A model generated the notes under the pieces. That model was not told the DNA's origin and did not search any database. It saw only the letters and a list, made by a program, of their open reading frames with translations. A stretch of DNA of 49,656 nt from Klebsiella phage vbKpUKJ_2. The translations under genes were made by a program, and so were the position numbers. Shown piece by piece: positions 8,704 to 31,208 of the stretch. Every line of letters starts with the position of its first letter. Position 1 is the first letter of the stretch. Location of the stretch: the sequence record PQ505130.1; one strand, written 5' to 3'.

Positions 8704-8734
8704 TGCTGTAACTCCGTTTCGTTTCGATGGGGTA

Positions 8735-8778
8735 ACTATACCAGCTTACCCCTGATCGGTTTTAGCAATTCGTGCTAT
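8735..8778 (-). promoter_or_regulatory. dyad promoter cassette (TAGCA-N5-TGCTA / TTGCTA, 22-nt spacer, TATAGT)
   Basis: Minus strand reads ATAGCACGAATTGCTAAAAC, then hairpin GGGGTAA..TTACCCC, then TATAGT, then TTACCCCATCGAAAC. It is 32 nt upstream of the ATG at 8703. Confidence 0.5.
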
Positions 8779-8974: not shown

Positions 8975-8982
8975 GCGTCGCC

Positions 8983-9207
8983 TCACCACTTAAAATTTCC
9001 GGAAATGATGATGCCACCAACGGCGGAAAGTGTAATCCAGGGCCAGCAAAGCACAGGATAAAGATCTTCTTTGTCGGTAGAATCCGCAGATTTCAGGAAG
9101 GCCCGCATGAGGAAACAGCCGCACGCATACAGGGCCAGAATAAGAACCGCCAGGGCAATAACTGCGTAAATCATGATGTTTTTCCTTGTCTTTGATTGGG
9201 TTGCCAT
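8983..9207 (-). CDS. hypothetical membrane protein (two TM segments)
   Basis: Hydrophobic stretches IMIYAVIALAVLILALYACG and ITLSAVGGIIISG. Confidence 0.35.
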   Translation of the reverse strand: MATQSKTRKNIMIYAVIALAVLILALYACGCFLMRAFLKSADSTDKEDLYPVLCWPWITLSAVGGIIISGNFKW

Positions 9208-9239
9208 GAAGCAACCCCGATTCGTGTTTGTGGTTCGTG

Positions 9240-9560
9240 CTATTGCTGGAGCTTTGCAAAAGCGTCGGCCATCATGCGCAAAACTCGCGCGTGATCTTCA
9301 ACGTCATAGCCAGGTTCGGTGCGCATGATTTCCCGAACATTCTCGATCGTGGCGATAGCCGCCTGAAGTTCACCAGTCAGGAGCGCAACCTGCTTTTCAA
9401 GCTCCGCGATTCGTGAGAATGGTTCGCGCATAAATGATTCGCACGAGGCATCACTAAGCGCCCAGCCGATCCCGGCGCGAATAACGGCGGCTAACAGCGG
9501 GTCGTCGTCTTTGGCGAAGTTGTCGGACGGGATCAGGTGTATGATTTGTGTGGTGTTCAT
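9240..9560 (-). CDS. hypothetical protein
   Basis: ATG at 9560 (MNTTQIIHL) downstream of dyad cassette. The longer ORF upstream merely translates the promoter cassette. Confidence 0.35.
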   Translation of the reverse strand: MNTTQIIHLIPSDNFAKDDDPLLAAVIRAGIGWALSDASCESFMREPFSRIAELEKQVALLTGELQAAIATIENVREIMRTEPGYDVEDHARVLRMMADAFAKLQQ

Positions 9561-9592
9561 GGTTAGGCTCCATCTCTTGTTAGTGTGGGGAT

Positions 9593-9636
9593 AGTATGCA
9601 CCATCCCCGGACGTTCGTTTTAGCAATTCGTGCTAT
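9593..9636 (-). promoter_or_regulatory. dyad promoter cassette
   Basis: ATAGCACGAATTGCTAAAAC, 22 nt, CATACT, with hairpin GGGGATGGTGCATACTATCCCC. Confidence 0.45.
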
Positions 9637-10124
9637 CAAAGGGCGTCTAATTCCGCCTCAATGAATTCGTACCACTCGTGGCCGTTAACTGGATCGTGTT
9701 CGGTGCCATGCAGCCAGTCCGTGTGGGTGGAACAGAATTCGCCGGATTTGTTGAAATAAAAGTCGGCCCATGACCGCGCCCAATCGCCTACGCCAGCGAA
9801 CGTGCCGAACTTGCGGATGTATGCGTCTGTATAACCGCGCTCCTTCGCAATGCGCTTCAGTGCGCGAACCAGCAACTTGCGCGGAGACGCCTTTGACACT
9901 TTCCGCAGGTGGAACAGAATGTGATCGTCATCCGGCCCCACGCGGATTGTTAGATCTTCGTCGATATCTATCGGGTTGACGATGTATTCGTTCAGGTATC
10001 CGCCCTGGATTACGTGAATCTTGCCGCAAGATCCTTTAACCTCGACGGCATCGAATACGCTCCCGATAAGATGCCGCTCTCTTCCGCGTGCCGCATTTAC
10101 TACCATGAGTTTTACGGTTTTCAT
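9636..10124 (-). CDS. hypothetical protein
   Basis: 162-aa ORF with consistent coding frame. Confidence 0.4.
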   Translation of the reverse strand: MKTVKLMVVNAARGRERHLIGSVFDAVEVKGSCGKIHVIQGGYLNEYIVNPIDIDEDLTIRVGPDDDHILFHLRKVSKASPRKLLVRALKRIAKERGYTDAYIRKFGTFAGVGDWARSWADFYFNKSGEFCSTHTDWLHGTEHDPVNGHEWYEFIEAELDAL

Positions 10125-10342
10125 TAGCGGATCTCCTTCACCTGGTGGGATTCGAGAAGGTTGGTTACTTCACGGATGCCGCAGTCCTCGAATTCCTCTT
10201 CGGCCCCTGCCGCCACTCTTAACCTGGTGAACCCGGCGTCATCGTCGATTGCGACTTCGATAACCTGCTCGCTCGAAAGCTCGATGTATGCACAGCCGTA
10301 GGAATTCAGTTCTTCCAGCAGTGCGATTAAATTATCGTTCAT
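10124..10342 (-). CDS. hypothetical acidic protein
   Basis: 72 aa, highly acidic. Preceded by dyad cassette. Confidence 0.35.
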   Translation of the reverse strand: MNDNLIALLEELNSYGCAYIELSSEQVIEVAIDDDAGFTRLRVAAGAEEEFEDCGIREVTNLLESHQVKEIR

Positions 10343-10382
10343 TGCGTTGCTCCTGATTGGATTGTTTCACTTCAGTAACGCC

Positions 10383-10426
10383 ACTTTATCAAATGACGTT
10401 ACGGCAGTTTTAACAAAAAGTGCTAT
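10383..10426 (-). promoter_or_regulatory. dyad promoter cassette
   Basis: ATAGCACTTTTTGTTAAAAC, 22 nt, TAAAGT. Inverted repeat GTAACG..CGTTAC brackets the -10. Confidence 0.45.
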
Positions 10427-10608
10427 TCTTTTTCGCCGCTGAACGCTGCCCGATACCCACGGCGGAACCCGTTAATCTCAGAAAGGCGGCATACGCCAAT
10501 GATGATGCAAATCATGCCGATCGCCTGCCAGCCTACGTGGTCATGCAGTGCCAGGCCGCCCAGGAAGAAGGCCCAATACAGCGCGAGTTTCTTTTTGCTT
10601 GCTTTCAT
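10423..10608 (-). CDS. small membrane protein
   Basis: 61 aa with hydrophobic core LALYWAFFLGGLAL. Confidence 0.3.
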   Translation of the reverse strand: MKASKKKLALYWAFFLGGLALHDHVGWQAIGMICIIIGVCRLSEINGFRRGYRAAFSGEKE

Positions 10609-10850
10609 ACTTTCACCTCAAATAGAACGTTGTTTTCATATGGTCTATTGGCGTACATTGCGATCTTTTCGTCCGGCATACGGCAGGCTGGCCAGAATTC
10701 GCCCTCTTCCGTGGTTCCCTGGTCGTCCTGCAAAATCCATACTTCATCAAGGCCGGGGCCGAACCTGGCGTCATACTCGCGGCCAGGTGTGAAATAGGTG
10801 GATAGCGGCGAATAGCCAGCGTGCGTACAAATTACTTTTACCGTTTCCAT
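10605..10850 (-). CDS. hypothetical protein
   Basis: 81 aa, start and stop overlap neighbouring genes. Confidence 0.35.
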   Translation of the reverse strand: METVKVICTHAGYSPLSTYFTPGREYDARFGPGLDEVWILQDDQGTTEEGEFWPACRMPDEKIAMYANRPYENNVLFEVKV

Positions 10851-11152
10851 TAGTAGATCCCGTTAGTCCAAACATAGCCGCATTCGATTATCTCGCGCGG
10901 ACTAACCTTTTTCGGCGTTGGGTTAATCCCGTCACCGCCAGTGTGGAACCCTGCCCCATACGCAAAATGAACCTGCTTTGCGAACAGGTCGCCGCGTGCC
11001 TGGATGTAAAGGCGGTTGCGCATAGCTAGGCCTCTAAGCGTGTTAACCTGATCGATGTGGTCGCCTTTGACCTTCGAGATCTTGCACATCACTGGCTTTT
11101 CGCCGAATTGCCCGGTTAAGCAGTGGCGATCGAAGTCTGATAAACGTATCAT
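10850..11152 (-). CDS. hypothetical protein
   Basis: 100-aa ORF, overlaps neighbouring genes. Confidence 0.35.
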   Translation of the reverse strand: MIRLSDFDRHCLTGQFGEKPVMCKISKVKGDHIDQVNTLRGLAMRNRLYIQARGDLFAKQVHFAYGAGFHTGGDGINPTPKKVSPREIIECGYVWTNGIY

Positions 11153-11475
11153 CCAACTACCTCCATGCAGGAATCATAACCGAAGAGATCCGTCACCATC
11201 TTCCAGGCGTCGTCGTCGCTCAGTGCTTTGGCGTCGAAGTTCTTGACGTGCTTAACGTGCGTCCAGTGGTAAGAGCCATCCGCCCAATGGGAATGGGTTT
11301 GTGAGTTGCCATTAAAGCGCCCGAATCTTTCAATGCTCAGGCCAACACCGCTTGAGTGGCGCTTGAACCACAAGATAGCCACGTTGCCAACTTCGTTGAC
11401 GTGAATAAGTCTCACCGCGCGAACCCCAATCGTGGCGTACAGGTTATTGGGTAGCGGCCTGGTCGTGCGAATCAT
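11149..11475 (-). CDS. hypothetical protein
   Basis: ATG at 11475 with RBS GAGGTGA. Confidence 0.35.
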   Translation of the reverse strand: MIRTTRPLPNNLYATIGVRAVRLIHVNEVGNVAILWFKRHSSGVGLSIERFGRFNGNSQTHSHWADGSYHWTHVKHVKNFDAKALSDDDAWKMVTDLFGYDSCMEVVG

Positions 11476-11485
11476 ATTTATCACC

Positions 11486-11857
11486 TCAAAGTTGATTTGC
11501 GAAAATATGCCAAACATGATCTTTTGGCGTGCGCTTCATGAGCTTGTGCGCCTTGCGTGCCATGCGCTTATAGTCGCGGGCGGTAAGTTTCGTTGGGTCG
11601 GCAACGAATGATTCGACAATCAACCCCTCGTAATGGTATTCCGGCTGCCATTCCCGATGGGTTCGCCACTCGTTGAAAGTGGTTAGCGGGAGGACGGAAT
11701 GCAAGTCACTGTGAAGGTGCTCCCCTCGCTCGCCGTAATGGAAAGCTCCGCGCATTTTGCCATCATTGCCTACGTGCAAAAGGTGAATGCGGCTTTTCTT
11801 GCCTTCGAAGTTGGTTCCGACGATGGCGACAACTGCGTTTTTGACGACCTGTTTCAT
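11486..11857 (-). CDS. hypothetical protein
   Basis: 123 aa. Dyad cassette 30 nt upstream. Confidence 0.4.
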   Translation of the reverse strand: MKQVVKNAVVAIVGTNFEGKKSRIHLLHVGNDGKMRGAFHYGERGEHLHSDLHSVLPLTTFNEWRTHREWQPEYHYEGLIVESFVADPTKLTARDYKRMARKAHKLMKRTPKDHVWHIFANQL

Positions 11858-11886
11858 TGTGAATCTCCGTTGTTTGGTGTATGGCT

Positions 11887-11930
11887 ATTATGCCCGATCT
11901 GCTGACCGGGCGTTTAGCAAAAAGTGCTAT
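11887..11930 (-). promoter_or_regulatory. dyad promoter cassette
   Basis: ATAGCACTTTTTGCTAAAC, 22 nt containing hairpin GCCCGGTCAGCAGATCGGGC, then CATAAT. Confidence 0.45.
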
Positions 11931-12128
11931 TCAGAAACCGAGCGCCTCACGCTCCAGGTTGGCCAGTGACGGAAAGCTGAATTTTGTAACGTGGTACGAG
12001 CCGCCCACATAGCCGGAAATGCTGATATTGTTGAACTCAACCTCAACACTGATAATCTTCATGTTCTTGCTGAAGGCGTACATTGCAAGCGCACGGTGCG
12101 CCCGCGCCAGGAATTCGAATTGGTTCAT
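11931..12128 (-). CDS. hypothetical protein
   Basis: 65-aa ORF. Confidence 0.3.
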   Translation of the reverse strand: MNQFEFLARAHRALAMYAFSKNMKIISVEVEFNNISISGYVGGSYHVTKFSFPSLANLEREALGF

Positions 12129-12382
12129 TTAAAGATCGCCCCTTTGATTTTGTTCCAGAAAGCGAAAGGATTGCGCTTCGGTTTCAGTTCCACGATATCA
12201 TGATCGAAGAATCCGCGATGCTTGCCGCAAAGCAAAGGCTTAACGCCATCCGTCACGAGGTCGCCAATGAAGAACCATTTGCCGCCATCCATGAAGTAAA
12301 GGCCGACGCATACGCCGGGCGCGGCATGAGTTGCGGTATCTGGCAGGCTGTATACCCTGCCGCGAGATTTGAATTGCTGCAT
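12125..12382 (-). CDS. hypothetical protein
   Basis: ATG at 12382 with RBS AAGGAGA. Confidence 0.4.
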   Translation of the reverse strand: MQQFKSRGRVYSLPDTATHAAPGVCVGLYFMDGGKWFFIGDLVTDGVKPLLCGKHRGFFDHDIVELKPKRNPFAFWNKIKGAIFK

Positions 12383-12428
12383 TATCCTGTCTCCTTGCAT
12401 AATTTGGTCGTTAATCGACCTCGTGATA

Positions 12429-12472
12429 ATTATGCCCGATCCTCTGACCGGGCGTTTAGCAATGCGTGCTAT
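12429..12472 (-). promoter_or_regulatory. dyad promoter cassette
   Basis: ATAGCACGCATTGCTAAAC, 22 nt with hairpin GCCCGGTCAGAGGATCGGGC, then CATAAT. Confidence 0.45.
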
Positions 12473-12789
12473 TTCAGGCCGCGAAGGTCAATCTTCGACT
12501 TTTCCCAATCAGGGAAGCGAGGCATTTCGCCCACCTGAACCATTTTGTTTCCGCCCGGCCCCTTATCCACCCATGAATCAGGCGAGTAGCTCAGTAGGCG
12601 AACATTTTCGGCGGTCGACTCATAGGCCCAAATTGAGCCGTCGGCATCAATGGCAACCGTGTTGGCCCAAACTGGCACGTCAAGCGACTGCATATCGAAC
12701 GTGCCAGGGATGTTAATCTGGAAGGCTACAACGTGGCGCTGCGTGATGGTAGCCACTACTTGCTCGCCGGATTTAACTTCGTGAATCAT
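12469..12789 (-). CDS. hypothetical protein
   Basis: ATG at 12789 with RBS AAGGAGAAC. Confidence 0.4.
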   Translation of the reverse strand: MIHEVKSGEQVVATITQRHVVAFQINIPGTFDMQSLDVPVWANTVAIDADGSIWAYESTAENVRLLSYSPDSWVDKGPGGNKMVQVGEMPRFPDWEKSKIDLRGLK

Positions 12790-12799
12790 TGCGTTCTCC

Positions 12800-13012
12800 T
12801 TACAGGAACATTCCGGCCAGGCGCAGGCGGTTAATGATATCATCACGCTTGACGCGCAGGCCATCATAGTAATCTTCCAGTTGTGCATCCCATGACGGCA
12901 GGTCAAGCATAAGATTCATCTCGTTGCACACCACCTTCAGCGCGTGGAAGTGTTGCTCAACCGCGCGACGGTGAAATGCTGCATTGAGTGGGTTGTTGTG
13001 GTTGCCGATCAT
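12800..13012 (-). CDS. hypothetical protein
   Basis: 70 aa, RBS AGAGGAG. Dyad cassette upstream. Confidence 0.4.
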   Translation of the reverse strand: MIGNHNNPLNAAFHRRAVEQHFHALKVVCNEMNLMLDLPSWDAQLEDYYDGLRVKRDDIINRLRLAGMFL

Positions 13013-13040
13013 GTTTATGCTCCTCTGTTTCGATGGGGTA

Positions 13041-13084
13041 ATAATACCGCATTACCCCGATCGGGTTTTAGCAAAAAGTGCTAT
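13041..13084 (-). promoter_or_regulatory. dyad promoter cassette
   Basis: ATAGCACTTTTTGCTAAAAC, 22 nt, TATTAT, TTACCCCATCGAAAC. Hairpins CCCGATCGGG and GGGGTAAT..ATTACCCC. Confidence 0.5.
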
Positions 13085-13290
13085 CTTTCCACCTCGCGCA
13101 TCTCGCCAACCGAAAGATAATAAGCGATATCCAGGCGGCTCATTGTGGGGTGGGGCCAGCCGCACTCATGCCAGATAACATCGCCCTCGCCTTTAGTCCA
13201 CATGGTTTCGCCGTCCCAGCGCCAAAGTCGGTTATTGAGGCGCGATCCGTAGACCGCACCAGGTTTTACATCGCTCGCCTTAAAATTCAT
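13081..13290 (-). CDS. hypothetical protein
   Basis: ATG at 13290. An alternative GTG start at 13338. Confidence 0.3.
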   Translation of the reverse strand: MNFKASDVKPGAVYGSRLNNRLWRWDGETMWTKGEGDVIWHECGWPHPTMSRLDIAYYLSVGEMREVER

Positions 13291-13432
13291 AGTCGACAAC
13301 CCCGAACTCGTTAACAATCTGCGCCTTGTAAAAGCCACCGTTTGCCGCCAGGTTGTAGCAAGCCGCCACGGTCTCGAACTCGCGCACTTCTGGCTTGCTG
13401 TTTTCGTGTTCCCAGGTGATCAGAGTAATCAT
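13280..13432 (-). CDS. hypothetical small protein
   Basis: ATG at 13432 with RBS GAGGAAAG, downstream of dyad cassette. Confidence 0.3.
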   Translation of the reverse strand: MITLITWEHENSKPEVREFETVAACYNLAANGGFYKAQIVNEFGVVDYEF

Positions 13433-13464
13433 TTCGCTTTCCTCGGTTCGTTGTCGATGAAGAG

Positions 13465-13508
13465 ATAATACCCGATCTCCCTGACCGGGTTTTAACAAAA
13501 AGTGCTAC
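13465..13508 (-). promoter_or_regulatory. dyad promoter cassette
   Basis: GTAGCACTTTTTGTTAAAAC, 22 nt with hairpin CCCGGTCAGGGAGATCGGG, then TATTAT. Confidence 0.45.
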
Positions 13509-13584
13509 TTGTTGCTCAGGTGGATGATAAACGCCGCCAGGAGCAATCCGCAATTGACACCGATGGAAAACAGGATAAAGGCGT

Positions 13585-13890
13585 TCATTGTGGATAATCC
13601 AGGCTAATGATGTTGTCGGCTTCATCGGCCATCATCTCCAGGACGTTCGACGCGCCGATGAACTCCGGCTTCGTCACCGCCTGGCCCGTCTCGGTGATAT
13701 GTTGAATATACGATTCAGAATTTGGAAGAAACGCCATCAAAAGCAAGTCACCTGTAACGCATTCCAGGGCGGTTGGATTTTCGTCGTCCGATGCACTGGC
13801 GACGGCGTCGATAACTTCCTGTTCGTCGATTAGCGTGCTGCCCAGGCGCATCGGTGCGGCGGGGTCGTTTTGGTCTGGATATAGTTTCAT
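13585..13890 (-). CDS. hypothetical highly acidic protein
   Basis: 101 aa with many D/E and few basic residues. Second gene of the leftward early operon. Confidence 0.4.
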   Translation of the reverse strand: MKLYPDQNDPAAPMRLGSTLIDEQEVIDAVASASDDENPTALECVTGDLLLMAFLPNSESYIQHITETGQAVTKPEFIGASNVLEMMADEADNIISLDYPQ

Positions 13891-14426
13891 GATTGTGCTC
13901 CTGTGATTCTGGCTTTCAGCGCCATTGTGTAACCGTTGTAAAGCAGGCCTTTTGGCATCACTTCGTCAATAATGGCAAGGATTTTTTCCCGTTCAGAGAT
14001 AGCGCCCTGCCGCCTGTATGCTTCCGCCTCCAGGTGTGAGCCAGTCCTTTCGTCGAACTCAGTAAAGACGGAGATTAACCCCGCCCCCAGGCTCACGCGC
14101 AACACCTCGCCCGGCTCCAGTAGTCTCAGTAACGGCCTGCGGAAATGGTTGTCGACCGGATTAACGCCGAACTTCTCCACGAACTCCTCCGCCGTCATCT
14201 GGATACGCCGCCCGCCATCCAGGAACATGCGCCGGATCTCGGAAGAGCGGTTGCCAGTGAATGTGCCTTCCGTCTTCGCTGCTTCCTGGCTCCGTCCGGC
14301 TGGCCTGGCGGCGTCGCCAAACGTGATGGATTGCAGCCATTCATGGTAAGCGGCTTGCTTTTCTGCGTCGTACCGCATCCACTCGGACACGTCGACTTCT
14401 TCGAACTCATAGCCTTTATATTGCAT
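13887..14426 (-). CDS. hypothetical early protein
   Basis: First gene of the leftward early operon. ATG at 14426, or GTG at 14441. Confidence 0.4.
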   Translation of the reverse strand: MQYKGYEFEEVDVSEWMRYDAEKQAAYHEWLQSITFGDAARPAGRSQEAAKTEGTFTGNRSSEIRRMFLDGGRRIQMTAEEFVEKFGVNPVDNHFRRPLLRLLEPGEVLRVSLGAGLISVFTEFDERTGSHLEAEAYRRQGAISEREKILAIIDEVMPKGLLYNGYTMALKARITGAQS

Positions 14427-14473
14427 TTGTGTTTCCCCCACATTTACGGCGTTTGGTAATGTTTCGGAAGGTG

Positions 14474-14502
14474 ATAATACAGGCCGCAGGCCGCGCCGTC
14501 AA
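14474..14502 (-). promoter_or_regulatory. sigma70-like early promoter TTGACG-17-TATTAT (leftward)
   Basis: Minus strand TTGACG (14497-14502), 17-nt GC-rich spacer with palindrome GGCCTGCGGCC, then TATTAT (14474-14479). About 40 nt upstream of the ATG at 14426. Confidence 0.5.
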
Positions 14503-14514
14503 AGGGTTTCGGCG

Positions 14515-14752
14515 TGTTTGGTAAGATTTGCTGTCATCCCCTATATATCCCTATATACATTTTTCGCGGCGGAACATCTAAAAATTATGGCTTGCGCAAG
14601 GAGAATCCATAACCCACCCGGAGAAATCTTACCAAACATATATAAAGATAAAGAGTAATAATAATAATATTGTTATTTATCATATACTTACTATCTATAT
14701 ATGGGCTTATATTGGTCATTTTTTGCGCAATTTTTAGGTAAGATTATTCCCC
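14515..14752. repeat. AT-rich region with GGTAAGAT iterons and left copy of 85-bp inverted repeat
   Basis: TTTGGTAAGATTT at 14517-14529. Its inverse is at 14626-14638. TTAGGTAAGATT at 14736-14747. Segment 14617-14703 is the reverse complement of 29767-29853 at about 90% identity. Confidence 0.6.
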
Positions 14753-14962
14753 CCCCACACTCCCACACGCCGCAAGTGTTGGTGAAACACAGCTCCAGTT
14801 CTGCCAGCTTCGATCGGCAAATTGCGTGCATGGTGCATACATTTATGCAATTCGTTGCAAATCCCTAAACACTCCCACAAGTCATTGCACAAAATGAAAC
14901 AATCAAAAGTAATCATGATTCGTCAAAACTAATCACCAGGGAATCAAGTGCAATCACCATCT

Positions 14963-14988
14963 ATTCCACCATTCCGAATCGGTGGAAT
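14963..14988. promoter_or_regulatory. perfect 8-bp inverted repeat ATTCCACC-N10-GGTGGAAT in the early rightward control region
   Basis: Seen directly. Flanked by seven AATCA pentamers within 14900-15000. Confidence 0.35.
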
Positions 14989-15005
14989 AATCAGCAATCG
15001 CAGGA

Positions 15006-15049
15006 ATAGCATTTTTTGTTAAAAGCCATCCGATCGACTTTGCTATGAT
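15006..15049 (+). promoter_or_regulatory. dyad promoter cassette (rightward)
   Basis: ATAGCATTTTTTGTTAAAAG, 22 nt, TATGAT. Drives 15089. Confidence 0.45.
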
Positions 15050-15088
15050 GACTTCAACGAAACGAATTGAGCCAAAGGAGCTAAAGCT

Positions 15089-15370
15089 ATGAAACTTCAA
15101 CGCGAATCAATCAACCTGGGCAGCGAGTATAACGGCAAGTGGAACTTCGTTATCATGGATAGCGACGCCGACAAGATCGAAGCGGTTGAGGAAGCGTTAT
15201 GCGAAATGGCCACTGACTTCTCTGTCGGCGGAGAAGAGAAAACCTGGGGCGACTACTGCGACCAATGCCCTTGCTATGATGATGGGTATGGCTCCGGCTT
15301 CTGGATTCCGGTCGAAGATGTTCCGGCCTTCAAAGAGGCGTACAAGGCAGCGAAGAAAGCAGTGAAATAA
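15089..15370 (+). CDS. hypothetical protein
   Basis: 93 aa, RBS AAGGAG. Confidence 0.45.
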   Translation: MKLQRESINLGSEYNGKWNFVIMDSDADKIEAVEEALCEMATDFSVGGEEKTWGDYCDQCPCYDDGYGSGFWIPVEDVPAFKEAYKAAKKAVK

Positions 15371-15411
15371 GCACGAATTGCTAAACGCCGGGCCGAAAGG
15401 CCTGGTATAGT
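15368..15411 (+). promoter_or_regulatory. dyad promoter cassette
   Basis: AAGCACGAATTGCTAAAC, 22 nt with GAAA-loop hairpin GGCCGAAAGGCC, then TATAGT, then TAACCCATCGAAACC. Confidence 0.5.
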
Positions 15412-15442
15412 TAACCCATCGAAACCAGTCAGGAGATTAACC

Positions 15443-15631
15443 ATGAAAGCATTTGCGGATGTAGTCGTCGGGGATAAAATTCAATATGGCGCAAGCGATT
15501 TGTTCCGTACCGTAACCGATATCGAGAAGGGTCGCGGCGTCAACGGGTTTACTGTCTTCGTGGTGCTCGACGGCGTTGCACGCTTTGCGGTTGACGCTCG
15601 TGATTGGGTTTTCTGCATCGAGAAGGGCTAG
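15443..15631 (+). CDS. hypothetical protein
   Basis: 62 aa, RBS AGGAG. Confidence 0.4.
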   Translation: MKAFADVVVGDKIQYGASDLFRTVTDIEKGRGVNGFTVFVVLDGVARFAVDARDWVFCIEKG

Positions 15632-15633
15632 GT

Positions 15634-15873
15634 ATGAGGAAACGGCGGGCCGGGGAGGTGGTTTGCACCTGCGATGCTTACCACTTCCCTCATCGAATGT
15701 TCGGCGGTTCATGCAACGGGATCGCCATTGTCATTGCCAGCGTTGGCGGCGCGGAGTGCCAGCATTGCCAGCTACTGAATAACGGTCGCTGCGAGGTGCT
15801 GGCGGGTATCGAGAACCCGATCGAATGCCATTACGTCGCCGACTTTATCCAACGAAACGAGGTTAAAATATAA
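15634..15873 (+). CDS. hypothetical Cys-rich protein (possible zinc binding)
   Basis: CTCDAYHFPH...CNG...ECQHCQ...RCE. Confidence 0.35.
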   Translation: MRKRRAGEVVCTCDAYHFPHRMFGGSCNGIAIVIASVGGAECQHCQLLNNGRCEVLAGIENPIECHYVADFIQRNEVKI

Positions 15874-16250
15874 TGCGAACAGTTACCATTTCGAACAGCT
15901 TTTCCTACATCATCGGATCGCCTGAAGAGCGTATCAGGGTCATCCGCGACAAGGCGACCAATGACGTTACCGATGCCTTCAGCGCTGCGGCTAAAGCTGC
16001 GATCACGCATTACTACGGTCGTGGCCCGGAAGAGTTCAGCGCAGACAGCGCGCCTTTCTTGGTTGTCAAAAAGGAAGGTGGTAATGTATGGCAAATCAAC
16101 GACAAGCAGACTGGCGAGTTTATTTTCGGATCGGTTCCGTGCCGGGTCGGTAGCAACGATGTTACCATTCAGGAACTCGGCGAAAAAGAACCTCTCGTTC
16201 AGCGCACGATCTACATCAGCCAGGATTACACGACCTGCGTTCCGGCATAG
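15873..16250 (+). CDS. hypothetical protein
   Basis: 125-aa ORF, start overlaps the previous stop. Confidence 0.4.
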   Translation: MRTVTISNSFSYIIGSPEERIRVIRDKATNDVTDAFSAAAKAAITHYYGRGPEEFSADSAPFLVVKKEGGNVWQINDKQTGEFIFGSVPCRVGSNDVTIQELGEKEPLVQRTIYISQDYTTCVPA

Positions 16251-16290
16251 CACGTTTTGCTAAAACAACATTGCGGGATAGTGGCATACT
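16247..16290 (+). promoter_or_regulatory. dyad promoter cassette
   Basis: ATAGCACGTTTTGCTAAAAC, 22 nt, CATACT inside hairpin GGGATAGTGGCATACTGTCCC. Near copy of the 9593-9636 cassette. Confidence 0.45.
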
Positions 16291-16322
16291 GTCCCCACAC
16301 CAACAAGCGAAGGAGTTACACA

Positions 16323-16556
16323 ATGAACAAACCAAAAACAAACCTTATTCTTGCTGCGCTGGAGAAGAACGGCTCTGTAGTTATGCGCCTGAATCGTGAA
16401 TGCGGTTATTCGCAGATCACGATCACGAAGGCTGTCAATGGCGGTTATGTTGTTGGTACTGTTCCTGGCGGCGTGTTAAAACGCGCTCAGATTGATAGCG
16501 TAACTGCAACAATCAACCTTTACTGCATGTTTATTGAAAAATGGTGGACGGCATGA
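16323..16556 (+). CDS. small HTH-like protein (candidate transcription regulator)
   Basis: 77 aa, RBS AAGGAG. Segment VMRLNRECGYSQITITKAVNG has a helix-turn-helix-like pattern. Confidence 0.35.
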   Translation: MNKPKTNLILAALEKNGSVVMRLNRECGYSQITITKAVNGGYVVGTVPGGVLKRAQIDSVTATINLYCMFIEKWWTA

Positions 16557-17245
16557 CAGACAAGGTTATTTACTGCATGTTCGACGGCTCCGGCATCATG
16601 GGCCTGCCGTGGGCTATCAAGGGATGCAAGGTGTACTGTTTCAATGCCGACTCCGGCGACCACGGAGAATATAGCATCCGAATGGTTCACCCCAATATCC
16701 AGTATGTTAACATTTGGATTGACAAGGATTTTGACGTGAAGCGATCTATTCTAGGCATTCCAGATCCCGACTTCATTTTCGCTTTCCCGTCATGCACGCT
16801 GTTAGCGCATAGCGGAATCAAGCACGTAAGGCAAGATAATGACGTTCTATCAGCCGCAGATGACGCGAAGATGGTCGAACGCCTGGGCAACGAGTATGGT
16901 TGCCCCTGGATGGTCGAAAACCCGGTCGGAAAATTGTCGACACTATGGCGCAAGCCTGACTTCTATTTTCACCCGCGCGACTTCGGCGGCTATGTTTCTC
17001 CGAACGAGCCTGTGTGGCATCCCAAAATGCCCCACTGTGACAATTACACGAAGAAAACGTGCATATGGCACGGAAACGGTTTTGTCGAACCGAAACGGCT
17101 CCCGCCGCCGGATGGAGTAGAAGGCGTGAATTTCTTTTGGGCCTGGAAGTTTTTGGGCGGAAGGTCAGAAAGGACTAAAATGCTGCGCTCCATTACTCCG
17201 CGAGGTTTTGCCCGCGCCGTGTTCCAGGCGAATTATCGAGAATAG
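16541..17245 (+). CDS. minimal DNA cytosine-C5 methyltransferase-like protein
   Basis: Motifs in canonical C5-MTase order: CMFDGSGIMG (motif I, FxGxG), FAFPSCTLLAHSG (motif IV, PC), WMVENPVG (motif VI, ENV). At 234 aa it is short for the family. Start at 16541, or at 16553 which is ATGA-coupled. Confidence 0.4.
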   Translation: MVDGMTDKVIYCMFDGSGIMGLPWAIKGCKVYCFNADSGDHGEYSIRMVHPNIQYVNIWIDKDFDVKRSILGIPDPDFIFAFPSCTLLAHSGIKHVRQDNDVLSAADDAKMVERLGNEYGCPWMVENPVGKLSTLWRKPDFYFHPRDFGGYVSPNEPVWHPKMPHCDNYTKKTCIWHGNGFVEPKRLPPPDGVEGVNFFWAWKFLGGRSERTKMLRSITPRGFARAVFQANYRE

Positions 17246-17285
17246 CACGAATTGCTAAAACTACCCGGCGAAAGTCGGGTAGCAT
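17242..17285 (+). promoter_or_regulatory. dyad promoter cassette
   Basis: ATAGCACGAATTGCTAAAAC, 22 nt with hairpin CTACCCGGCGAAAGTCGGGTAG, then TAGCAT, then TACCCCATCGAAACG. Confidence 0.45.
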
Positions 17286-17317
17286 TACCCCATCGAAACG
17301 CAACGGAGTAAACGGAA

Positions 17318-18138: not shown

Positions 18139-18263
18139 CGGGTTCGGGGCCATGCGCCCCGATAATCCAAGCGCGTTTTTCAAGCGTGTTTAGATTATCA
18201 CTGGATCTCGGATTTAATACGGCATATGATTAGCCGAACGATTAACCAATCAGGAGCAAGGGC

Positions 18264-24428: not shown

Positions 24429-24458
24429 GGCGTTTGCTCCTGATTGGTTGATGGCGTA

Positions 24459-24502
24459 ATAATACCCGCACGCGGCGGGTATTGTTTAGCAATTAGTGCT
24501 GT
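24459..24502 (-). promoter_or_regulatory. dyad promoter cassette
   Basis: ACAGCACTAATTGCTAAAC, 22 nt with hairpin CCCGCCGCGTGCGGG, then TATTAT. Confidence 0.45.
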
Positions 24503-25567: not shown

Positions 25568-25597
25568 ATGTTTCTCCGTTCTTCGTTTCGATGGGGT

Positions 25598-25642
25598 AAT
25601 AATACCCGGCTTTCGCCGGGCGGTTTTAACAAAAAGTGCTAT
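25598..25642 (-). promoter_or_regulatory. dyad promoter cassette
   Basis: ATAGCACTTTTTGTTAAAAC, 23 nt with GAAA-loop hairpin CCCGGCGAAAGCCGGG, then TATTAT, then TTACCCCATCGAAAC. Confidence 0.5.
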
Positions 25643-28092: not shown

Positions 28093-28120
28093 TTGTCATT
28101 CGCATAGTTGCGTGTATAAT
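28093..28120 (+). promoter_or_regulatory. sigma70-like promoter TTGTCA-16-TATAAT for the HTH gene
   Basis: TTGTCA at 28093-28098 and TATAAT at 28115-28120. Confidence 0.45.
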
Positions 28121-28158
28121 ACATGGAACATTTTATCAGGTTTAACAAAAAATGCTAT
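28116..28158 (-). promoter_or_regulatory. dyad promoter cassette for helicase, overlapping the divergent sigma70 promoter
   Basis: Minus strand ATAGCATTTTTTGTTAAAC, 21 nt, TATTAT (28116-28121). The -10 hexamers of the two divergent promoters overlap. Confidence 0.45.
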
Positions 28159-28170: not shown

Positions 28171-28572
28171 ATGGAACAAATGGCAAAGATTGATAAGAGA
28201 ACCTTGAACGGCAATAACGGAACATCGCGCGGGAAAGATAAGAAGAAACGCAAGCGACCGACTGGTTACTACGTGCTGAAGGATGAGGTTCGCGCCGGGT
28301 TGACTGCGCGGATGGAGCTGGTTATTGATGCCTTCGGTGGTATCGCGGGAACGGCAAAAGAGTTGGGGGTTAGCATCCAGGTTGTTCAGCAGTGGCGTAA
28401 GCGCGGCATGATCTCAGCCGATGGCGCTTATCTCGTACATAAGAGCTACAGACGGAACAATTGCAAAGGTTTCCGCGCCTCATTCTGCCGACCAGATTTA
28501 AGGTTTGACAGCAACGGCAAGCCAGTTACGCGACGATGCGACCGCCGGGAAATGCTCCGCGTAGTCCGATAG
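28171..28572 (+). CDS. XRE/Cro-like HTH transcriptional regulator
   Basis: Classic HTH segment TAKELGVSIQVVQQWRKRGMI. 133 aa. Has its own sigma70 promoter. Confidence 0.5.
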   Translation: MEQMAKIDKRTLNGNNGTSRGKDKKKRKRPTGYYVLKDEVRAGLTARMELVIDAFGGIAGTAKELGVSIQVVQQWRKRGMISADGAYLVHKSYRRNNCKGFRASFCRPDLRFDSNGKPVTRRCDRREMLRVVR

Positions 28573-28592
28573 CACAATTTGTCTAAACACTA

Positions 28593-28635
28593 AACGCCTG
28601 CCGGGTTATCATTCTCGTGTAGGCGTTTTTTATTT
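28593..28635 (+). terminator. rho-independent terminator
   Basis: AACGCCT...AGGCGTT hairpin followed by TTTTTTATTT. A degenerate dyad copy GATAGCACAATTTGTCTAAAC sits just upstream at 28568-28588. Confidence 0.45.
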
Positions 28636-30026: not shown

Positions 30027-30069
30027 ATAGCACTTTTTGACTTGCGCCGGGAATCGTCATGCGTATACT
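30027..30069 (+). promoter_or_regulatory. dyad promoter cassette (TTGACT variant)
   Basis: ATAGCACTTTTTGACTTG, 21 nt, TATACT, TAACGCAACGAAACC. Confidence 0.45.
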
Positions 30070-30102
30070 TAACGCAACGAAACCACAAATGGAGCAATAT
30101 CA

Positions 30103-31149
30103 ATGGCTGAAGCAATTTTCAGGGCATACACCAGCAGTGAATTGACTAACGAGCAATATCACGATCCTAACTCCTGGTGCGCGGAATACGTTAGCGGCTC
30201 AAGCCTCGGCGAGATTTACGCAACATCCCCGGCGCACTGGAAATTCAAGGTGCGCGAGGAAACAGCCGCGCTGGCGTTCGGCACTTGCTCGCATACCTGT
30301 ATGCTTGAGACCGCAAAATTTAATGGCGAGTATCTGCGGGCGACTTCTCCGGGCGAGGTTAAGGATCTGATTACGTCTAAGTCGGCATTGTCTGCGAAGC
30401 TGAAAGCGTGTGGCCTGATTGGGACGTCCAACAAGGATTACCCGGAACTTCTGGAAATGGCATATCGCGCCGGGATTGACGTAAATGTTTGGTGGGCGAT
30501 TGAACTTTGCGACGAAAGCGCCGCTATGAACTCCGGGCGCAAGCTGGTTAAGGATGTTGATTTCGATGCCGTTGTTCAAATGCGAAGCGTGATGTTGGCC
30601 AACCCGCGACACGCCGCCTGTATCGAATCACCTACCGCACAGCGTGAATTGTCAATCTTCGGTGAGATCTTCGGCGTCAAGGTTAAGGTTCGACTCGATC
30701 ATGTTGACGTAGTTTCCGATCCCGAACTCATCAAAGAGTGGGGGTTTAACCCGGATGAAGTTTTCGAGGTTGTGGTGATCACAGATTACAAAACCACGCA
30801 ATCATCCAAGCCGGACGAATTCGGGCGACTCGCTTTCAATTTGGGCTACTATCTCAAGATGGCATTGCAGCGTGATCTGTTCGTGAAGACCTACAACGAA
30901 AAACGCCCGGTAGTTGTCAGACTGCTAACGCAGGAGAAAAAATCACCGTTTGCTCCGCTGGCGTTCACCCTGACCAGCCAGCAGATCGAGATTGGTCGCA
31001 AGCAGTATCAAAGCGTGATTCATCAGTATGCGGAATGCGTGAAGCATGATTCATGGCCATCATATGAGTCAAACGCGGCGGAAGTTGTTTTGCCTACTCC
31101 GCAGTTTGTGAAATACATGTTCCCGGACGTATACGGCACAAATAGCTAA
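30103..31149 (+). CDS. PD-(D/E)XK recombination exonuclease
   Basis: Motif ITDYKTT...K typical of RecB/Cas4/YqaJ-type nucleases. Immediately upstream of ERF. Confidence 0.45.
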   Translation: MAEAIFRAYTSSELTNEQYHDPNSWCAEYVSGSSLGEIYATSPAHWKFKVREETAALAFGTCSHTCMLETAKFNGEYLRATSPGEVKDLITSKSALSAKLKACGLIGTSNKDYPELLEMAYRAGIDVNVWWAIELCDESAAMNSGRKLVKDVDFDAVVQMRSVMLANPRHAACIESPTAQRELSIFGEIFGVKVKVRLDHVDVVSDPELIKEWGFNPDEVFEVVVITDYKTTQSSKPDEFGRLAFNLGYYLKMALQRDLFVKTYNEKRPVVVRLLTQEKKSPFAPLAFTLTSQQIEIGRKQYQSVIHQYAECVKHDSWPSYESNAAEVVLPTPQFVKYMFPDVYGTNS

Positions 31150-31208
31150 ACACTGGTGCGCACTTGTGATATAGTGCGCATTACCAATCAGGAAAAGGAA
31201 ACTTTATC

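What the first reader, a model, noticed from the sequence alone, without database searches (positions are those of the whole stretch)
13027..13068. Structured spacer and conserved initial transcribed sequence in the cassettes: covarying hairpins plus TTACCCCATCGAAAC
Within the 22-nt spacer, or bracketing the -10, most cassettes carry an inverted repeat. Its sequence differs between copies while position and stem length are kept. Examples: GGCCGAAAGGCC, CCCGGCGAAAGCCGGG, CTACCCGGCGAAAGTCGGGTAG, GCCCGGTCAGCAGATCGGGC, CCCGCCGCGTGCGGG, GGGGTAAT..ATTACCCC, GGGGAT..ATCCCC and GTAACG..CGTTAC. Several have GAAA loops. This compensatory variation implies selection for structure in DNA or RNA rather than for a protein site. 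Immediately after the -10, a near-invariant TTACCCCATCGAAAC is found at 8716-8729, 13027-13040, 25583-25597, 15412-15426 and 17286-17300. Weaker variants occur elsewhere. It would form the first nucleotides of the transcripts. It could be a discriminator or initial-transcribed element, an RNase processing site, or a leader that sets mRNA stability or translation. Read-through transcripts from the upstream gene would contain the complete hairpin. Such hairpins could also act as 3' stabilisers or partial terminators of the preceding cistron.
Basis: seen in the sequence. Interest (0 to 1): 0.6.

Follow-up and report, generated by a model that had tools for sequence, protein, structure and literature searches.

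The report
Phage promoter cassettes with built-in hairpins
The hairpins and the conserved 15-mer are real parts of about 16 repeated promoter cassettes in a T1-like Klebsiella phage. The cassettes look like host MarA/SoxS/Rob-type ("marbox") promoters, and their hairpins act on RNA reading in from the upstream gene, much like the promoter/stem-loop cassettes known in T4-like phages.

Summary
The window is a Webervirus (Drexlerviridae). It carries 16 cassettes, and 14 fold into stable hairpins between the upstream repeat and the start site. The complementarity is specific to each cassette (permutation p=0.0002). TTACCCCATCGAAAC occurs four times exactly and once with one mismatch.

The interpretation needs revision in three places:
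- **The "-35 with a 22-nt spacer".** It is the 3' half of a 20-bp element, ATAGCAC-NNW-TTGYTAAAAC. This fits the marbox consensus and lies 18 bp from the -10, as in E. coli micF and inaA. That is a class II MarA/SoxS/Rob/RamA-type promoter.
- **The 15-mer.** It is the family-wide consensus of positions -7 to +8: a TACCCC discriminator, A at +1, then ATCGAAAC.
- **The hairpins.** They lie upstream of, or across, the predicted start, so they form only in read-through RNA. They fold better on the sense strand (71 of 81). They accompany an upstream co-directional gene whose stop codon usually sits in the marbox (p=1e-5). About 44% of the in-spacer type have a U-rich tail.

The closest precedent is the PeSLs of T4-type phages. 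Like PeSLs, these cassettes mark mosaic junctions, and the cassette at 13027-13084 is itself a recombinant junction.

The hairpin and 15-mer layout is a new variant of a known kind. The marbox link appears to be unreported. No function was tested experimentally.

The parts
13065..13084 (-). 20-bp marbox-like element ATAGCACTTTTTGCTAAAAC of the cassette named in the finding. Its TAG (13081-13083) is the stop codon of the upstream ORF 13081-13338.
   Evidence: It matches AYNGCACNNWNNRYYAAAYN with 1 mismatch. The stop codon falls at marbox position 2. The consensus is taken from PMC2064960.
13031..13063 (-). Type B hairpin. CGAU/AUCG plus GGGGUAAUG/UAUUACCCC enclose part of the -10 hexamer and the predicted start site. 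It can form only in RNA that reads in from upstream.
   Evidence: MFE -16.9 kcal/mol, z=-4.4. Orthologous variants keep the fold at -11 to -15 kcal/mol.
13041..13046 (-). -10 hexamer TATTAT, 18 bp downstream of the marbox.
   Evidence: The spacing equals that of E. coli micF and inaA.
13027..13041 (-). The 15-mer TTACCCCATCGAAAC. It comprises T(-7) of the -10 hexamer, the TACCCC discriminator (13035-13040), the predicted +1 A (13034), and ATCGAAAC at +1..+8 (13027-13034).
   Evidence: for the matches. The family-wide logo of -7..+8 is. The start site is inferred, not mapped.
12800..13026 (-). The rest of the 22-nt A-rich leader with GAGGAG (13013-13026) and the downstream 70-aa ORF 12800-13012, whose homologue is annotated as a transcriptional regulator.
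   Evidence: Pfam gives no significant family.
8721..8778 (-). Cassette with an exact 15-mer and a type B hairpin at 8725-8758 (GGGGTAA/TTACCCC).
9579..9636 (-). Cassette with a type B hairpin at 9587-9608 (GGGGAT/ATCCCC).
10369..10426 (-). Cassette with a type B hairpin at 10375-10402 (GTAACG/CGTTAC, 12 pairs including G.U).
11873..11930 (-). Cassette with a type A hairpin at 11892-11911 (CCCGGUC-AGCA-GAUCGGG).
12415..12472 (-). Cassette with a type A hairpin at 12434-12453.
13451..13508 (-). Cassette with a type A hairpin at 13470-13490, followed by AUUAUCUCUU. It passes a simple terminator rule.
15006..15063 (+). Cassette without a hairpin. It is the first rightward promoter in the divergent non-coding region and has no upstream co-directional gene.
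15368..15425 (+). Cassette with the 15-mer at one mismatch and a type A hairpin at 15387-15406 (GGCC-GAAA-GGCC core).
16247..16304 (+). Cassette with a type B hairpin at 16272-16297. Its marbox ATAGCACGTTTTGCTAAAAC is 17/20 identical to the E. coli mar marbox.
17242..17299 (+). Cassette with an exact 15-mer and a type A hairpin at 17261-17282 (CUACCCGGC-GAAA-GUCGGGUAG, with a G.U pair that works on the sense strand only).
24445..24502 (-). Cassette with a type A hairpin at 24461-24483.
25585..25642 (-). Cassette with an exact 15-mer and a type A hairpin at 25604-25621 (CCCGGC-GAAA-GCCGGG), followed by UAUUAUUA.
28102..28158 (-). Cassette without a hairpin. It is the helicase promoter in a divergent intergenic region and has no upstream co-directional gene.
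28569..28635 (+). Cassette whose type B hairpin (28596-28624) is followed by TTTTTTATTT. This is a canonical intrinsic terminator after the 133-aa regulator gene, with the -10 hexamer in its loop. The arrangement is conserved in T1, ESP2949-1 and Rtp.
30027..30083 (+). Degenerate cassette. RE1 (ATAGCAC) is kept and RE2 is replaced (TTGACTTGCG). It has TATACT and the start region AACGAAAC.
31133..31189 (+). Cassette with a perfect marbox match (ACGGCACAAATAGCTAAACA), a 17-bp spacing and a type B hairpin at 31154-31183.

Best explanation
The finding describes two components of a repeated composite regulatory cassette that precedes most early and DNA-metabolism genes of this T1-like Klebsiella phage.

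Each cassette, read 5' to 3', contains:
1. The stop codon of the upstream gene, usually the TAG inside ATAGCAC.
2. A 20-bp marbox-like activator site at about -50 to -31.
3. An 18-bp stretch that is free to vary.
4. A -10 hexamer, often preceded by G at -14.
5. A discriminator, consensus TACCCC.
6. A predicted start at A.
7. A short, A-rich, unstructured leader beginning ATCGAAAC.
8. A Shine-Dalgarno sequence and the start codon.

The 15-mer is the consensus core-promoter and start region. It is kept by selection on initiation, promoter escape and leader function, and it is spread by recombination between cassettes.

The hairpins use the only positions that promoter function leaves free. Type A has both arms in the 18-bp stretch and ends at the -10. 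Type B has one arm in that stretch and the other over the discriminator and +1..+4, with the -10 hexamer in the loop.

Because at least the 5' arm lies upstream of the start site, transcripts made from the cassette's own promoter lack the hairpin. Only RNA reading through from the upstream gene folds it. In that RNA the hairpin attenuates or terminates transcription: clearly where a U-rich tail follows, weakly otherwise. It may also protect the 3' end of the upstream cistron. Each small gene thereby becomes a semi-insulated expression module.

The conserved cassette ends also serve as homology for recombination that inserts or deletes genes.

Shown here: the repeat architecture, the pairing and its covariation, the sense-strand bias, the association with upstream genes, the fit to the marbox consensus and geometry, and the mosaic junctions.

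Inferred: the start-site position, activator binding, termination or stabilisation activity, and the role of the leader.
For: Identity: the window is 93-94% identical to Klebsiella Webervirus genomes.

Architecture:
- There are 16 matches to ATAGCACNNNTTGNTAAA against 0.22 expected.
- All are followed at 17-18 bp by a TAnnnT or CAnnnT hexamer.
- A standard sigma-70 scan finds none of them, with 10 hits against 10.0 in shuffles.

Marbox:
- The consensus AYNGCACNNWNNRYYAAAYN comes from PMC2064960.
- The window has 12 sites at <=1 mismatch against 0.70 in shuffles.
- E. coli micF reads marbox, 18 bp, TAGAAT, 7 nt, +1. inaA reads marbox, 18 bp, TATAGT, and fumC is compatible with 17-19 bp.
- Class II marbox promoters are forward-oriented, centred near -41 and lack a -35 (PMC10268841; PMC12052159; PMC8811837).

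Hairpins:
- 14 of 16 window cassettes fold stably.
- The matched-versus-mismatched permutation test gives p=0.0002 to 0.04 in 8 genomes.
- The sense RNA is more stable than the antisense in 71 of 81 cassettes (p=3e-11), with 98 G.U pairs against 53.
- GAAA is the commonest type A loop, 7 of 27.
- A hairpin is present in 72 of the 85 cassettes that have an upstream ORF of >=50 aa ending at the marbox, and in 9 of the 24 that do not (Fisher p=1.3e-5).
- The stop codon is the marbox TAG in 48 of 115 cassettes.
- The two hairpin-less window cassettes are the two that lack an upstream co-directional gene.
- By my count from the tails listed, 12 of 27 type A tails have >=5 U in 8. Some are textbook terminators, for example T1 ACCCGCGAAAGCGGG-TATTATTGTTTT and ESP2949-1 ...GGG-TATTATTTTTTT.
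- The window cassette at 28569 has a T-run.
- Orthologous variants keep the fold in about 37 of 40 cases, with changes mostly in loops or to G.U.

15-mer:
- It equals the consensus of -7..+8 over 99 non-redundant cassettes from 8 genomes.
- It is present at <=1 mismatch in 16 of 109 cassettes. These have unrelated spacers and both hairpin types.
- Leaders are 46% A, have a median length of 25 nt, and are less structured than shuffles.
- The T7 host-polymerase promoters A1 (TACAGCC-A+1-TCGAGAGG) and A3 (GTACCAC-A+1-TGAAACGA) have similar start regions.

Recombination:
- KpKT21phi1 has two cassettes flanking 616 bp with three ORFs. The window has one hybrid cassette at 13030-13084, with the crossover inside the marbox.
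- 10 of 33 homology breakpoints fall in cassettes against 6.2% expected.

Precedent: PeSLs place stem-loops mostly between -35 and -10 or overlapping the -10, and one stem-loop was shown to terminate transcription (PMC2839356).
Against: - No transcript 5' or 3' ends are available for any T1-like phage in the searched library, so the start site and any termination are inferred.
- Most window hairpins lack a canonical U-tract. In the early region 8000-18500, only the hairpin at 13470-13490 passes a simple terminator rule, and terminator-like hits overall are not enriched (14 against 12.5 in shuffles).
- Type B hairpins are followed by AUCGAAAC, not by U's. For them the choice between termination and mere 3' protection is open.
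- In Rtp, 10 of 18 cassettes have no hairpin, although several have upstream genes. The hairpin is therefore dispensable.
- T-richness of the discriminator after type A hairpins is not significantly above that of hairpin-less cassettes (p=0.12).
- The breakpoint test uses a genome-wide null rather than a gene-boundary null.
- Cassettes within and between genomes are not phylogenetically independent, so the p-values are approximate.
- Binding by MarA, SoxS, Rob or RamA was not tested.
Confidence: 0.62

Rival explanations
1. The hairpins serve the downstream gene. Read-through RNA is cut by RNase E in the A/U-rich marbox RNA (UUUUUGYUAAAA), leaving the hairpin as a protective 5' stem-loop on the downstream message.
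For: The observations that favour the main reading also fit this one: the sense-strand RNA bias and the dependence on an upstream co-directional gene. The marbox RNA is A/U-rich and single-stranded, and it lies immediately 5' of the hairpin (logo). That 5' stem-loops stabilise E. coli mRNAs is established knowledge, recalled and not tested here.
Against: Several type A hairpins, and the 28569 hairpin, are followed by true U-tracts. That points to 3'-end formation. No cleavage data exist.
Confidence: 0.13
2. The inverted repeats act in DNA. Cruciform or hairpin extrusion around the -10, or a GC-rich spacer, tunes melting, supercoiling sensitivity or activator response of the promoter itself.
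For: The arms flank or abut the -10 hexamer. MarA can activate transcription by distorting base pairing next to its site at another promoter (PMC12781870).
Against: There is a strong sense-over-antisense asymmetry and an excess of G.U pairs, which duplex or cruciform DNA would not produce. The hairpins are absent exactly where there is no upstream transcription. Many functional-looking cassettes in Rtp lack them. E. coli micF has no such repeat. Stems of 6-12 bp with loops up to 10 nt are poor cruciform formers (established knowledge).
Confidence: 0.1
3. The 15-mer is a dedicated regulatory element, such as an RNase processing site, a riboregulator target or a sigma-32-type -10 (CCCCATnT), rather than an ordinary core-promoter and leader consensus.
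For: It is near-invariant in five window copies despite unrelated spacers. It is also present in T1, Rtp, BrunoManser, GJL01 and a T4-like Klebsiella phage. CCCCAT resembles the sigma-32 -10, a resemblance I recall from memory.
Against: Conservation decays smoothly, at 0.25-1.1 bits per position, and most cassettes carry variants such as ACACCAAC or ATCAACAA. This fits an optimum rather than a strict site. Rfam finds nothing. No sigma-32-like -35 lies 13-15 bp upstream, and a good sigma-70 -10 sits exactly 6 nt before the A. T7 A1 and A3 have similar start regions.
Confidence: 0.08
4. One reading: sigma-70 promoters with a TTGCTA -35 and an unusual 22-nt structured spacer.
For: TTGCTA resembles TTGACA, and the 22-nt distance is constant.
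Against: A 22-bp spacer lies outside the range sigma-70 holoenzyme uses (established knowledge), and the sigma-70 scan finds none of the cassettes. The conserved block extends 9 bp further upstream (ATAGCAC-NNW). It matches the marbox at every specified position but one. It has the same spacing as micF and inaA.
Confidence: 0.05

Closest known systems
PeSLs (promoter-early stem-loops) of T4-type phages RB49/phi1, PST and nt-1 (Arbiol et al. 2010, PMC2839356; Comeau et al. 2014, PMC4122927)
   Same: Both are repeated intergenic cassettes. Each runs from the upstream stop codon through a promoter and a variable-sequence stem-loop (with G.U pairs) to the SD and start codon. The stem-loop lies mostly between the upstream promoter element and the -10, or overlaps the -10. 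Both precede small early genes of unknown function and coincide with indels and gene replacements between related phages.
   Different: PeSL promoters are near-consensus sigma-70 promoters (TTGACA-N17-TATAAT) with an AT-rich upstream region. Here the -35 is replaced by a 20-bp marbox-like element. The host phage is a T1-like siphovirus. Terminator activity and mini-circles were shown experimentally for PeSLs, and nothing was tested here.
Class II MarA/SoxS/Rob/RamA ('marbox') promoters of enterobacteria, e.g. micF, inaA, fumC
   Same: Both have a 20-bp asymmetric site matching AYNGCACNNWNNRYYAAAYN in forward orientation, overlapping the -35 position and centred near -41, with no -35 hexamer. 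The site lies 18 bp from the -10, as checked on the E. coli K-12 sequence.
   Different: The host promoters are single-copy stress-regulon promoters without spacer hairpins. In the phage the site is repeated about 16-20 times per genome, has fixed T-A at positions 2-3 so that it doubles as a TAG stop codon, and is fused to a conserved start region. Activator dependence is untested.
The 21-nt direct repeat aaATAGCACnnnTTGnTAAAA reported in phage TLS and noted in T1, Rtp and Rogue1 (PMC11447400, 2024)
   Same: It is the same element, with the same orientation and intergenic location.
   Different: That paper left the function open, suggesting stoperator-like, enhancer-binding or UP-like roles. 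It did not report the fixed -10 at 18 bp, the hairpins, the conserved start region or the marbox resemblance.
Intrinsic (Rho-independent) terminators
   Same: Type A hairpins have a GC-rich stem, often a GNRA loop, and an A/U-rich tail. A subset, and the 28569 cassette, have full U-tracts.
   Different: Most window copies have interrupted tails such as UAUUAUUACC. Type B hairpins are followed by AUCGAAAC. Only one hairpin in 8000-18500 passes a simple terminator rule.
Early host-polymerase promoters A1 and A3 of phage T7
   Same: The start regions are alike. A1 reads GATACT-TACAGCC-A(+1)TCGAGAGG and A3 reads TACGAT-GTACCAC-A(+1)TGAAACGACAG, against TATAGT-TACCCC-A(+1)TCGAAAC here.
   Different: The T7 promoters have canonical -35 hexamers and no marbox. 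The resemblance is short and may reflect a common optimum for E. coli-type RNA polymerase rather than shared ancestry.

Membership tests
Class II marbox (MarA/SoxS/Rob/RamA) promoter | A 20-bp site matching AYNGCACNNWNNRYYAAAYN | tested here: met
   The window has 4 sites at 0 mismatches and 12 at <=1, against 0.05 and 0.70 in dinucleotide shuffles. The cassette consensus agrees at every specified position except position 19. The unspecified positions 8-9 vary, and position 10 is always A or T, as the consensus requires.
Class II marbox (MarA/SoxS/Rob/RamA) promoter | Forward orientation, overlapping the -35 position, centred near -41 | tested here: met
   The GCAC end is distal and the AAA end proximal in all cassettes. 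The site spans -50..-31 if +1 is the A located 7 nt after the -10. The start site is inferred.
Class II marbox (MarA/SoxS/Rob/RamA) promoter | The same marbox-to-(-10) distance as validated class II promoters | tested here: met
   The distance is 18 bp in 14 of 16 window cassettes and 17 bp in two. It is 18 bp in micF and in inaA, and fumC is compatible with 17-19 bp.
Class II marbox (MarA/SoxS/Rob/RamA) promoter | No recognisable -35 hexamer at 16-18 bp from the -10 | tested here: met
   Positions -35..-30 read AAA(A/C)NN. The sigma-70 scan detects none of the cassettes.
Class II marbox (MarA/SoxS/Rob/RamA) promoter | Bound by the activator, with transcription dependent on it | not testable with these tools
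   This needs EMSA or footprinting, in vitro transcription, or mutant hosts. The phage itself encodes no MarA/SoxS homologue (best tblastn E=0.36; Pfam on the two annotated regulators).
PeSL-type composite promoter/stem-loop cassette | A repeated intergenic unit of upstream stop codon, promoter, stem-loop, SD and start codon | tested here: met
PeSL-type composite promoter/stem-loop cassette | A stem-loop between the upstream promoter element and the -10, or overlapping the -10, with variable sequence | tested here: met
   There are 7 type A and 7 type B hairpins in the window, and 27 type A and 54 type B among 109 non-redundant cassettes.
PeSL-type composite promoter/stem-loop cassette | A near-consensus sigma-70 -35/-10 promoter with an AT-rich upstream region | tested here: not met
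   The -35 is replaced by the marbox-like element. I therefore call it a variant, not a member.
PeSL-type composite promoter/stem-loop cassette | Association with indels and modular shuffling between related phages | tested here: met
   The cassette at 13030-13084 is a hybrid junction of a 616-bp, three-ORF indel relative to KpKT21phi1. 10 of 33 breakpoints fall in cassettes against 6.2% expected. The caveat is that the null model does not use gene boundaries.
PeSL-type composite promoter/stem-loop cassette | The stem-loop terminates or attenuates upstream transcription | not testable with these tools
   Only indirect support is available: the sense-strand bias, the dependence on an upstream gene, and U-rich tails in a subset.
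Intrinsic terminator | A GC-rich stem-loop directly followed by a U-tract (>=5 U in 8) | tested here: inconclusive
   The criterion is met by 12 of 27 type A hairpins across genomes (my count from the tails) and by window cassettes 13508, 25642 and 28569. It is not met by most window hairpins or by type B hairpins in general.
Sigma-54 promoter (TGGCAC-N5-TTGCW) | GG and GC doublets exactly 10 nt apart | tested here: not met
   The cassette reads TAGCAC-N3-TTGC. The first G is A in 94 of 99 cassettes and the spacing is 2 bp short. The sigma-54 consensus is recalled from established knowledge.
Known RNA family (Rfam) | A match at the gathering threshold | tested here: not met
   There are 0 matches in the whole window.

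The most novel reading that the evidence does not exclude
T1-like phages (Drexlerviridae), and a gene patch in a T4-like Klebsiella phage, drive most early genes from class II marbox promoters. If so, their early expression is wired to the host's MarA/SoxS/Rob/RamA stress and antibiotic-resistance regulators. These phages would replicate better in cells where the regulators are active, for example with bile-activated Rob or in RamA- or MarA-overexpressing multidrug-resistant Klebsiella. Mutants in these regulators would then be partly phage-tolerant.
Probability: 0.45. Interest if true: 0.8.

Novelty: new variant of a known kind. Interest (0 to 1): 0.6.

Why it matters
Weberviruses are among the most commonly isolated candidates for Klebsiella phage therapy, yet their genome papers report almost no recognisable promoters.

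This analysis gives a complete, testable anatomy for about 16 promoters per genome. It explains the "22-nt spacer" puzzle and a repeat that the 2024 TLS paper reported without a function. It also shows that the promoter/stem-loop cassette design known from T4-type phages exists in an unrelated phage family, built on a different promoter type. There it likewise marks the junctions where genes are gained and lost.

If the marbox reading is right, it links phage early gene expression to RamA, MarA, SoxS and Rob. Those are the regulators that raise antibiotic resistance in Klebsiella and E. coli, so the link bears on combined use of phages and antibiotics. The cassettes are also compact, ready-made parts (promoter, insulator and leader) for phage engineering.

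Tried and rejected
- **Sigma-70 scan with 16-18-bp spacers.** It finds none of the cassettes.
- **Rfam at gathering threshold.** Nothing in the window.
- **Sigma-54.** The two hexamers look similar, but the GG is missing and the spacing is 2 bp short.
- **Sigma-32 -10 (CCCCATnT).** Only a minority of cassettes carry CCCC, there is no matching -35, and a good sigma-70 -10 is in register.
- **T4 MotA box.** The element is about 10 bp too far from the -10. The rule is recalled from memory, and PMC4122927 cites only the TGCTT box.
- **A palindromic dimer site TAGCA-N5-TGCTA.** I considered this first. The full 20-bp asymmetric conservation (A at -50, AAAAC at -35..-31) fits a monomeric two-helix marbox better.
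- **A phage-encoded AraC/MarA-like activator.** The two annotated regulators are Cro/HTH-like or match no family.
- **Cassettes being common in the T4-like phage Matisse.** In about 32 kb examined they occur only in one patch of three small genes.
- **GATC enrichment in the spacer as a Dam-methylation signal.** It is about 2-fold. Pairing of spacer CGAUC with the conserved AUCG(A) at +1..+4 explains it more simply.
- **Exact 15-mer scan of IMG/VR.** It returned many chance hits and a sample biased towards the motif, so I used it only for orthologous variants.
- **Literature searches.** Two of them returned nothing relevant.
- **Column-by-column covariation count.** I did not run one because the hairpin register differs between cassettes. 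I used the register-free permutation test instead.
Full report
**What the window is.** Window positions 12000-18000 are 93-94% identical to Klebsiella Webervirus genomes of the T1-like family Drexlerviridae. The annotation of the relative KpKT21phi1 shows where the cassettes lie. They sit in the early and DNA-metabolism parts of the genome, with many small ORFs, methyltransferases, helicases, primase, exonuclease and Erf. They are absent from the structural gene block.

**Checking the observation.**
- The 15-mer TTACCCCATCGAAAC is exact at 8721-8735(-), 13027-13041(-), 17285-17299(+) and 25585-25599(-). It has one mismatch at 15411-15425(+). No shuffle reaches the observed count.
- The upstream repeat ATAGCACNNNTTGNTAAA has 16 matches against 0.22 expected.
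- Extracting all copies gives 16 cassettes with a rigid layout: a 20-bp conserved block, then 18 bp (17 in two cassettes), then a TAnnnT or CAnnnT hexamer, then 6 nt, then A.
- Folding positions -32..+12 gives -12.5 to -16.9 kcal/mol for 14 of 16 cassettes, with z of -2.2 to -5.4.
- The hairpins fall into two geometries:
  - Type A (7 cassettes): both arms lie within the 18-bp stretch and the stem ends at the -10.
  - Type B (7 cassettes): the 5' arm lies in the stretch, the 3' arm lies over the discriminator and the first transcribed bases, and the -10 is in the loop.

**Is the covariation more than chance?** The register differs between cassettes, so I used a register-free test. I took the duplex energy between each cassette's spacer and its own -6..+4 region and compared it with all mismatched pairings within the same genome.
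- Matched pairs are more stable in the window (p=0.0002), in T1 (0.0002), in GJL01 (0.0002) and in BrunoManser (0.0004). The result is <=0.04 in all eight genomes tested.
- T1 gives clear examples: GGGGTA/TACCCC, GGGGTT/AACCCC, AAGGCC/GGCCTT, AAGGGC/GCCCTT and GGGAGTA/TACTCCC.
- Among orthologous copies from metagenomic Webervirus contigs, changes fall mainly in loops or give G.U pairs. About 37 of 40 variants keep a stable fold.

**DNA or RNA, and which strand?**
- Over 81 non-redundant hairpin-bearing cassettes, chosen by either strand's energy, the sense-strand RNA is more stable in 71 (Wilcoxon p=3e-11).
- Sense folds contain 98 G.U pairs against 53 for the antisense folds.
- GAAA is the commonest type A loop, 7 of 27.
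- This points to a sense-strand RNA, not to duplex or cruciform DNA.

**What the "-35 plus 22-nt spacer" really is.**
- The conserved block is A-T-A-G-C-A-C-N-N-W-T-T-G-Y-T-A-A-A-(A/C)-N (logo). This fits the marbox/soxbox consensus AYNGCACNNWNNRYYAAAYN (PMC2064960) at every specified position except position 19.
- The window holds 12 sites at <=1 mismatch against 0.70 in shuffles.
- Class II marbox promoters have the site in forward orientation over the -35 position, centred near -41, and have no recognisable -35.
- I read the E. coli K-12 sequence directly:
  - micF is ACAGCACTGAATGTCAAAAC, 18 bp, TAGAAT, 7 nt, then the annotated +1.
  - inaA is a marbox, 18 bp, then TATAGT. fumC is compatible with 17-19 bp.
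  - The mar marbox ATGCCACGTTTTGCTAAATC is 17/20 identical to the window copy at 16247.
- The phage geometry is therefore that of class II MarA/SoxS/Rob/RamA promoters. A 22-bp sigma-70 spacer is not needed to explain it.
- A plain sigma-70 scan finds none of the cassettes.
- The phage encodes no MarA/SoxS-like protein, so a host factor would be used.
- The same repeat was published in 2024 for phage TLS as a 21-nt direct repeat of unknown function. I found no paper linking it to marboxes.
- Activator binding is inferred, not shown.

**What the 15-mer is.**
- With the -10 at -12..-7, the 15-mer is T(-7), the TACCCC discriminator, A(+1) and TCGAAAC(+2..+8).
- Across 99 non-redundant cassettes from eight genomes, the most frequent base at each of these positions spells the same sequence. 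Information is moderate, 0.25-1.1 bits per position.
- It occurs at <=1 mismatch in 16 of 109 cassettes, in six of the eight genomes compared. These have unrelated spacers and both hairpin types, or no hairpin. It is therefore not a by-product of recent whole-cassette duplication or of the hairpin.
- The leader is short (median 25 nt), 46% A, and slightly less structured than shuffles.
- The T7 promoters A1 and A3 have similar start regions.
- I read the 15-mer as an optimised core-promoter, start and leader consensus.

**What the hairpins do.**
- The 5' arm always lies upstream of the predicted start, so the cassette's own transcripts cannot form the hairpin. Only read-through RNA can.
- The upstream ORF's stop codon is the TAG of ATAGCAC in 48 of 115 cassettes, and lies within or next to the marbox in about 90. 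There is no other room for a 3' structure.
- A hairpin is present in 72 of the 85 cassettes with an upstream ORF of >=50 aa ending at the marbox, and in 9 of the 24 without (p=1.3e-5).
- The two hairpin-less window cassettes, 15006 and 28158, are the two that start divergent transcription units.
- By my count from the tails, 12 of 27 type A stems are followed by >=5 U in 8. Some are canonical terminators in which the -10 and a T-rich discriminator form the U-tract.
- The 28569 cassette is a type B hairpin with a T-run, and this is conserved in four genera.
- Most window copies have weaker tails. Attenuation and/or 3'-end protection is the prudent wording.

**Comparison with known systems.**
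- PeSLs of T4-type phages are the same design. [quoted passage not shown]
- The present cassettes behave alike at the genome level. KpKT21phi1 has two cassettes flanking 616 bp with three ORFs. The window has a single hybrid cassette at 13030-13084, the very copy in the finding, with the crossover inside the marbox.
- 10 of 33 homology breakpoints against four relatives fall in cassettes, against 6.2% expected.
- A perfect cassette, including the hairpin and the 15-mer, sits upstream of an unrelated gene in the T4-like Klebsiella phage Matisse. It lies in a patch of three small genes.
- The difference from PeSLs is the promoter type (marbox rather than -35) and the phage family.

**Verdict.**
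The covariation and the secondary "terminator/3' stabiliser" idea hold up. The promoter model and the claim that the whole 15-mer is transcribed do not.
- The hairpin and start-region layout is a new variant of a known kind.
- The marbox identity of the repeat is the most novel element, and it remains to be tested.

Noticed in passing
window 14442-15088 and 29608-30102: Two long non-coding regions share a ~130-bp AT-rich segment in inverted orientation (14617-14745 against 29724-29854, 85% identity). Both contain several copies of a 12-14-bp motif, TTAGGTAAGATT / AATCTTACCAAA. This looks iteron- or operator-like and could be an origin or binding sites for the Cro-like regulator.
   Followed up: partly
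window 13030-13084 against L001 (KpKT21phi1) 33652-33723 and 34319-34394: The cassette in the finding is a recombinant junction. The relative has two cassettes flanking 616 bp with three small ORFs, and the window has one hybrid cassette with the crossover in the 20-bp marbox.
   Followed up: yes
L124 (Klebsiella phage Matisse, Slopekvirus) 2146-2850: A T4-like phage carries a patch of three small genes with these promoters. One is a perfect cassette with the hairpin and the 15-mer (2501-2565). One has a marbox, then an annotated terminator, then a -10 at 29 bp, which is one helical turn further (2146-2215). One is sigma-70 type, TTGCAT-17-TATAGT, with the same ATCGAAACGAAAC start (2797-2835). 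The genes have no homologues in five Drexlerviridae genomes.
   Followed up: partly
all cassettes, marbox positions 2-4 and 15-17: The marbox doubles as the stop codon of the upstream gene. It is the TAG of ATAGCAC in 48 of 115 cassettes and the TAA of GCTAAA in 15. This explains why positions left free in the host consensus are fixed in the phage.
   Followed up: yes
cassette spacers, e.g. window 13055-13059 and 8752-8756: GATC occurs in 21 of 109 spacers, about twice the expected rate. The likely reason is that spacer CGAUC pairs with the conserved AUCG(A) at +1..+4 and so extends type B stems, rather than Dam methylation control.
   Followed up: partly
window 8794-8981 and 11164-11481: Two further insertions relative to KpKT21phi1 each add one small ORF (8762-8989 and 11149-11517). 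The first abuts the cassette at 8778. The second has gene-boundary junctions without a cassette.
   Followed up: partly
L136 (E. coli K-12) upstream of fumC: The host fumC class II marbox is immediately preceded by the fumA terminator (GCCGCCCTTCGGGGCGGTTTTTTT). This is a host example of a terminator and a marbox promoter packed together, though not overlapping.
   Followed up: no
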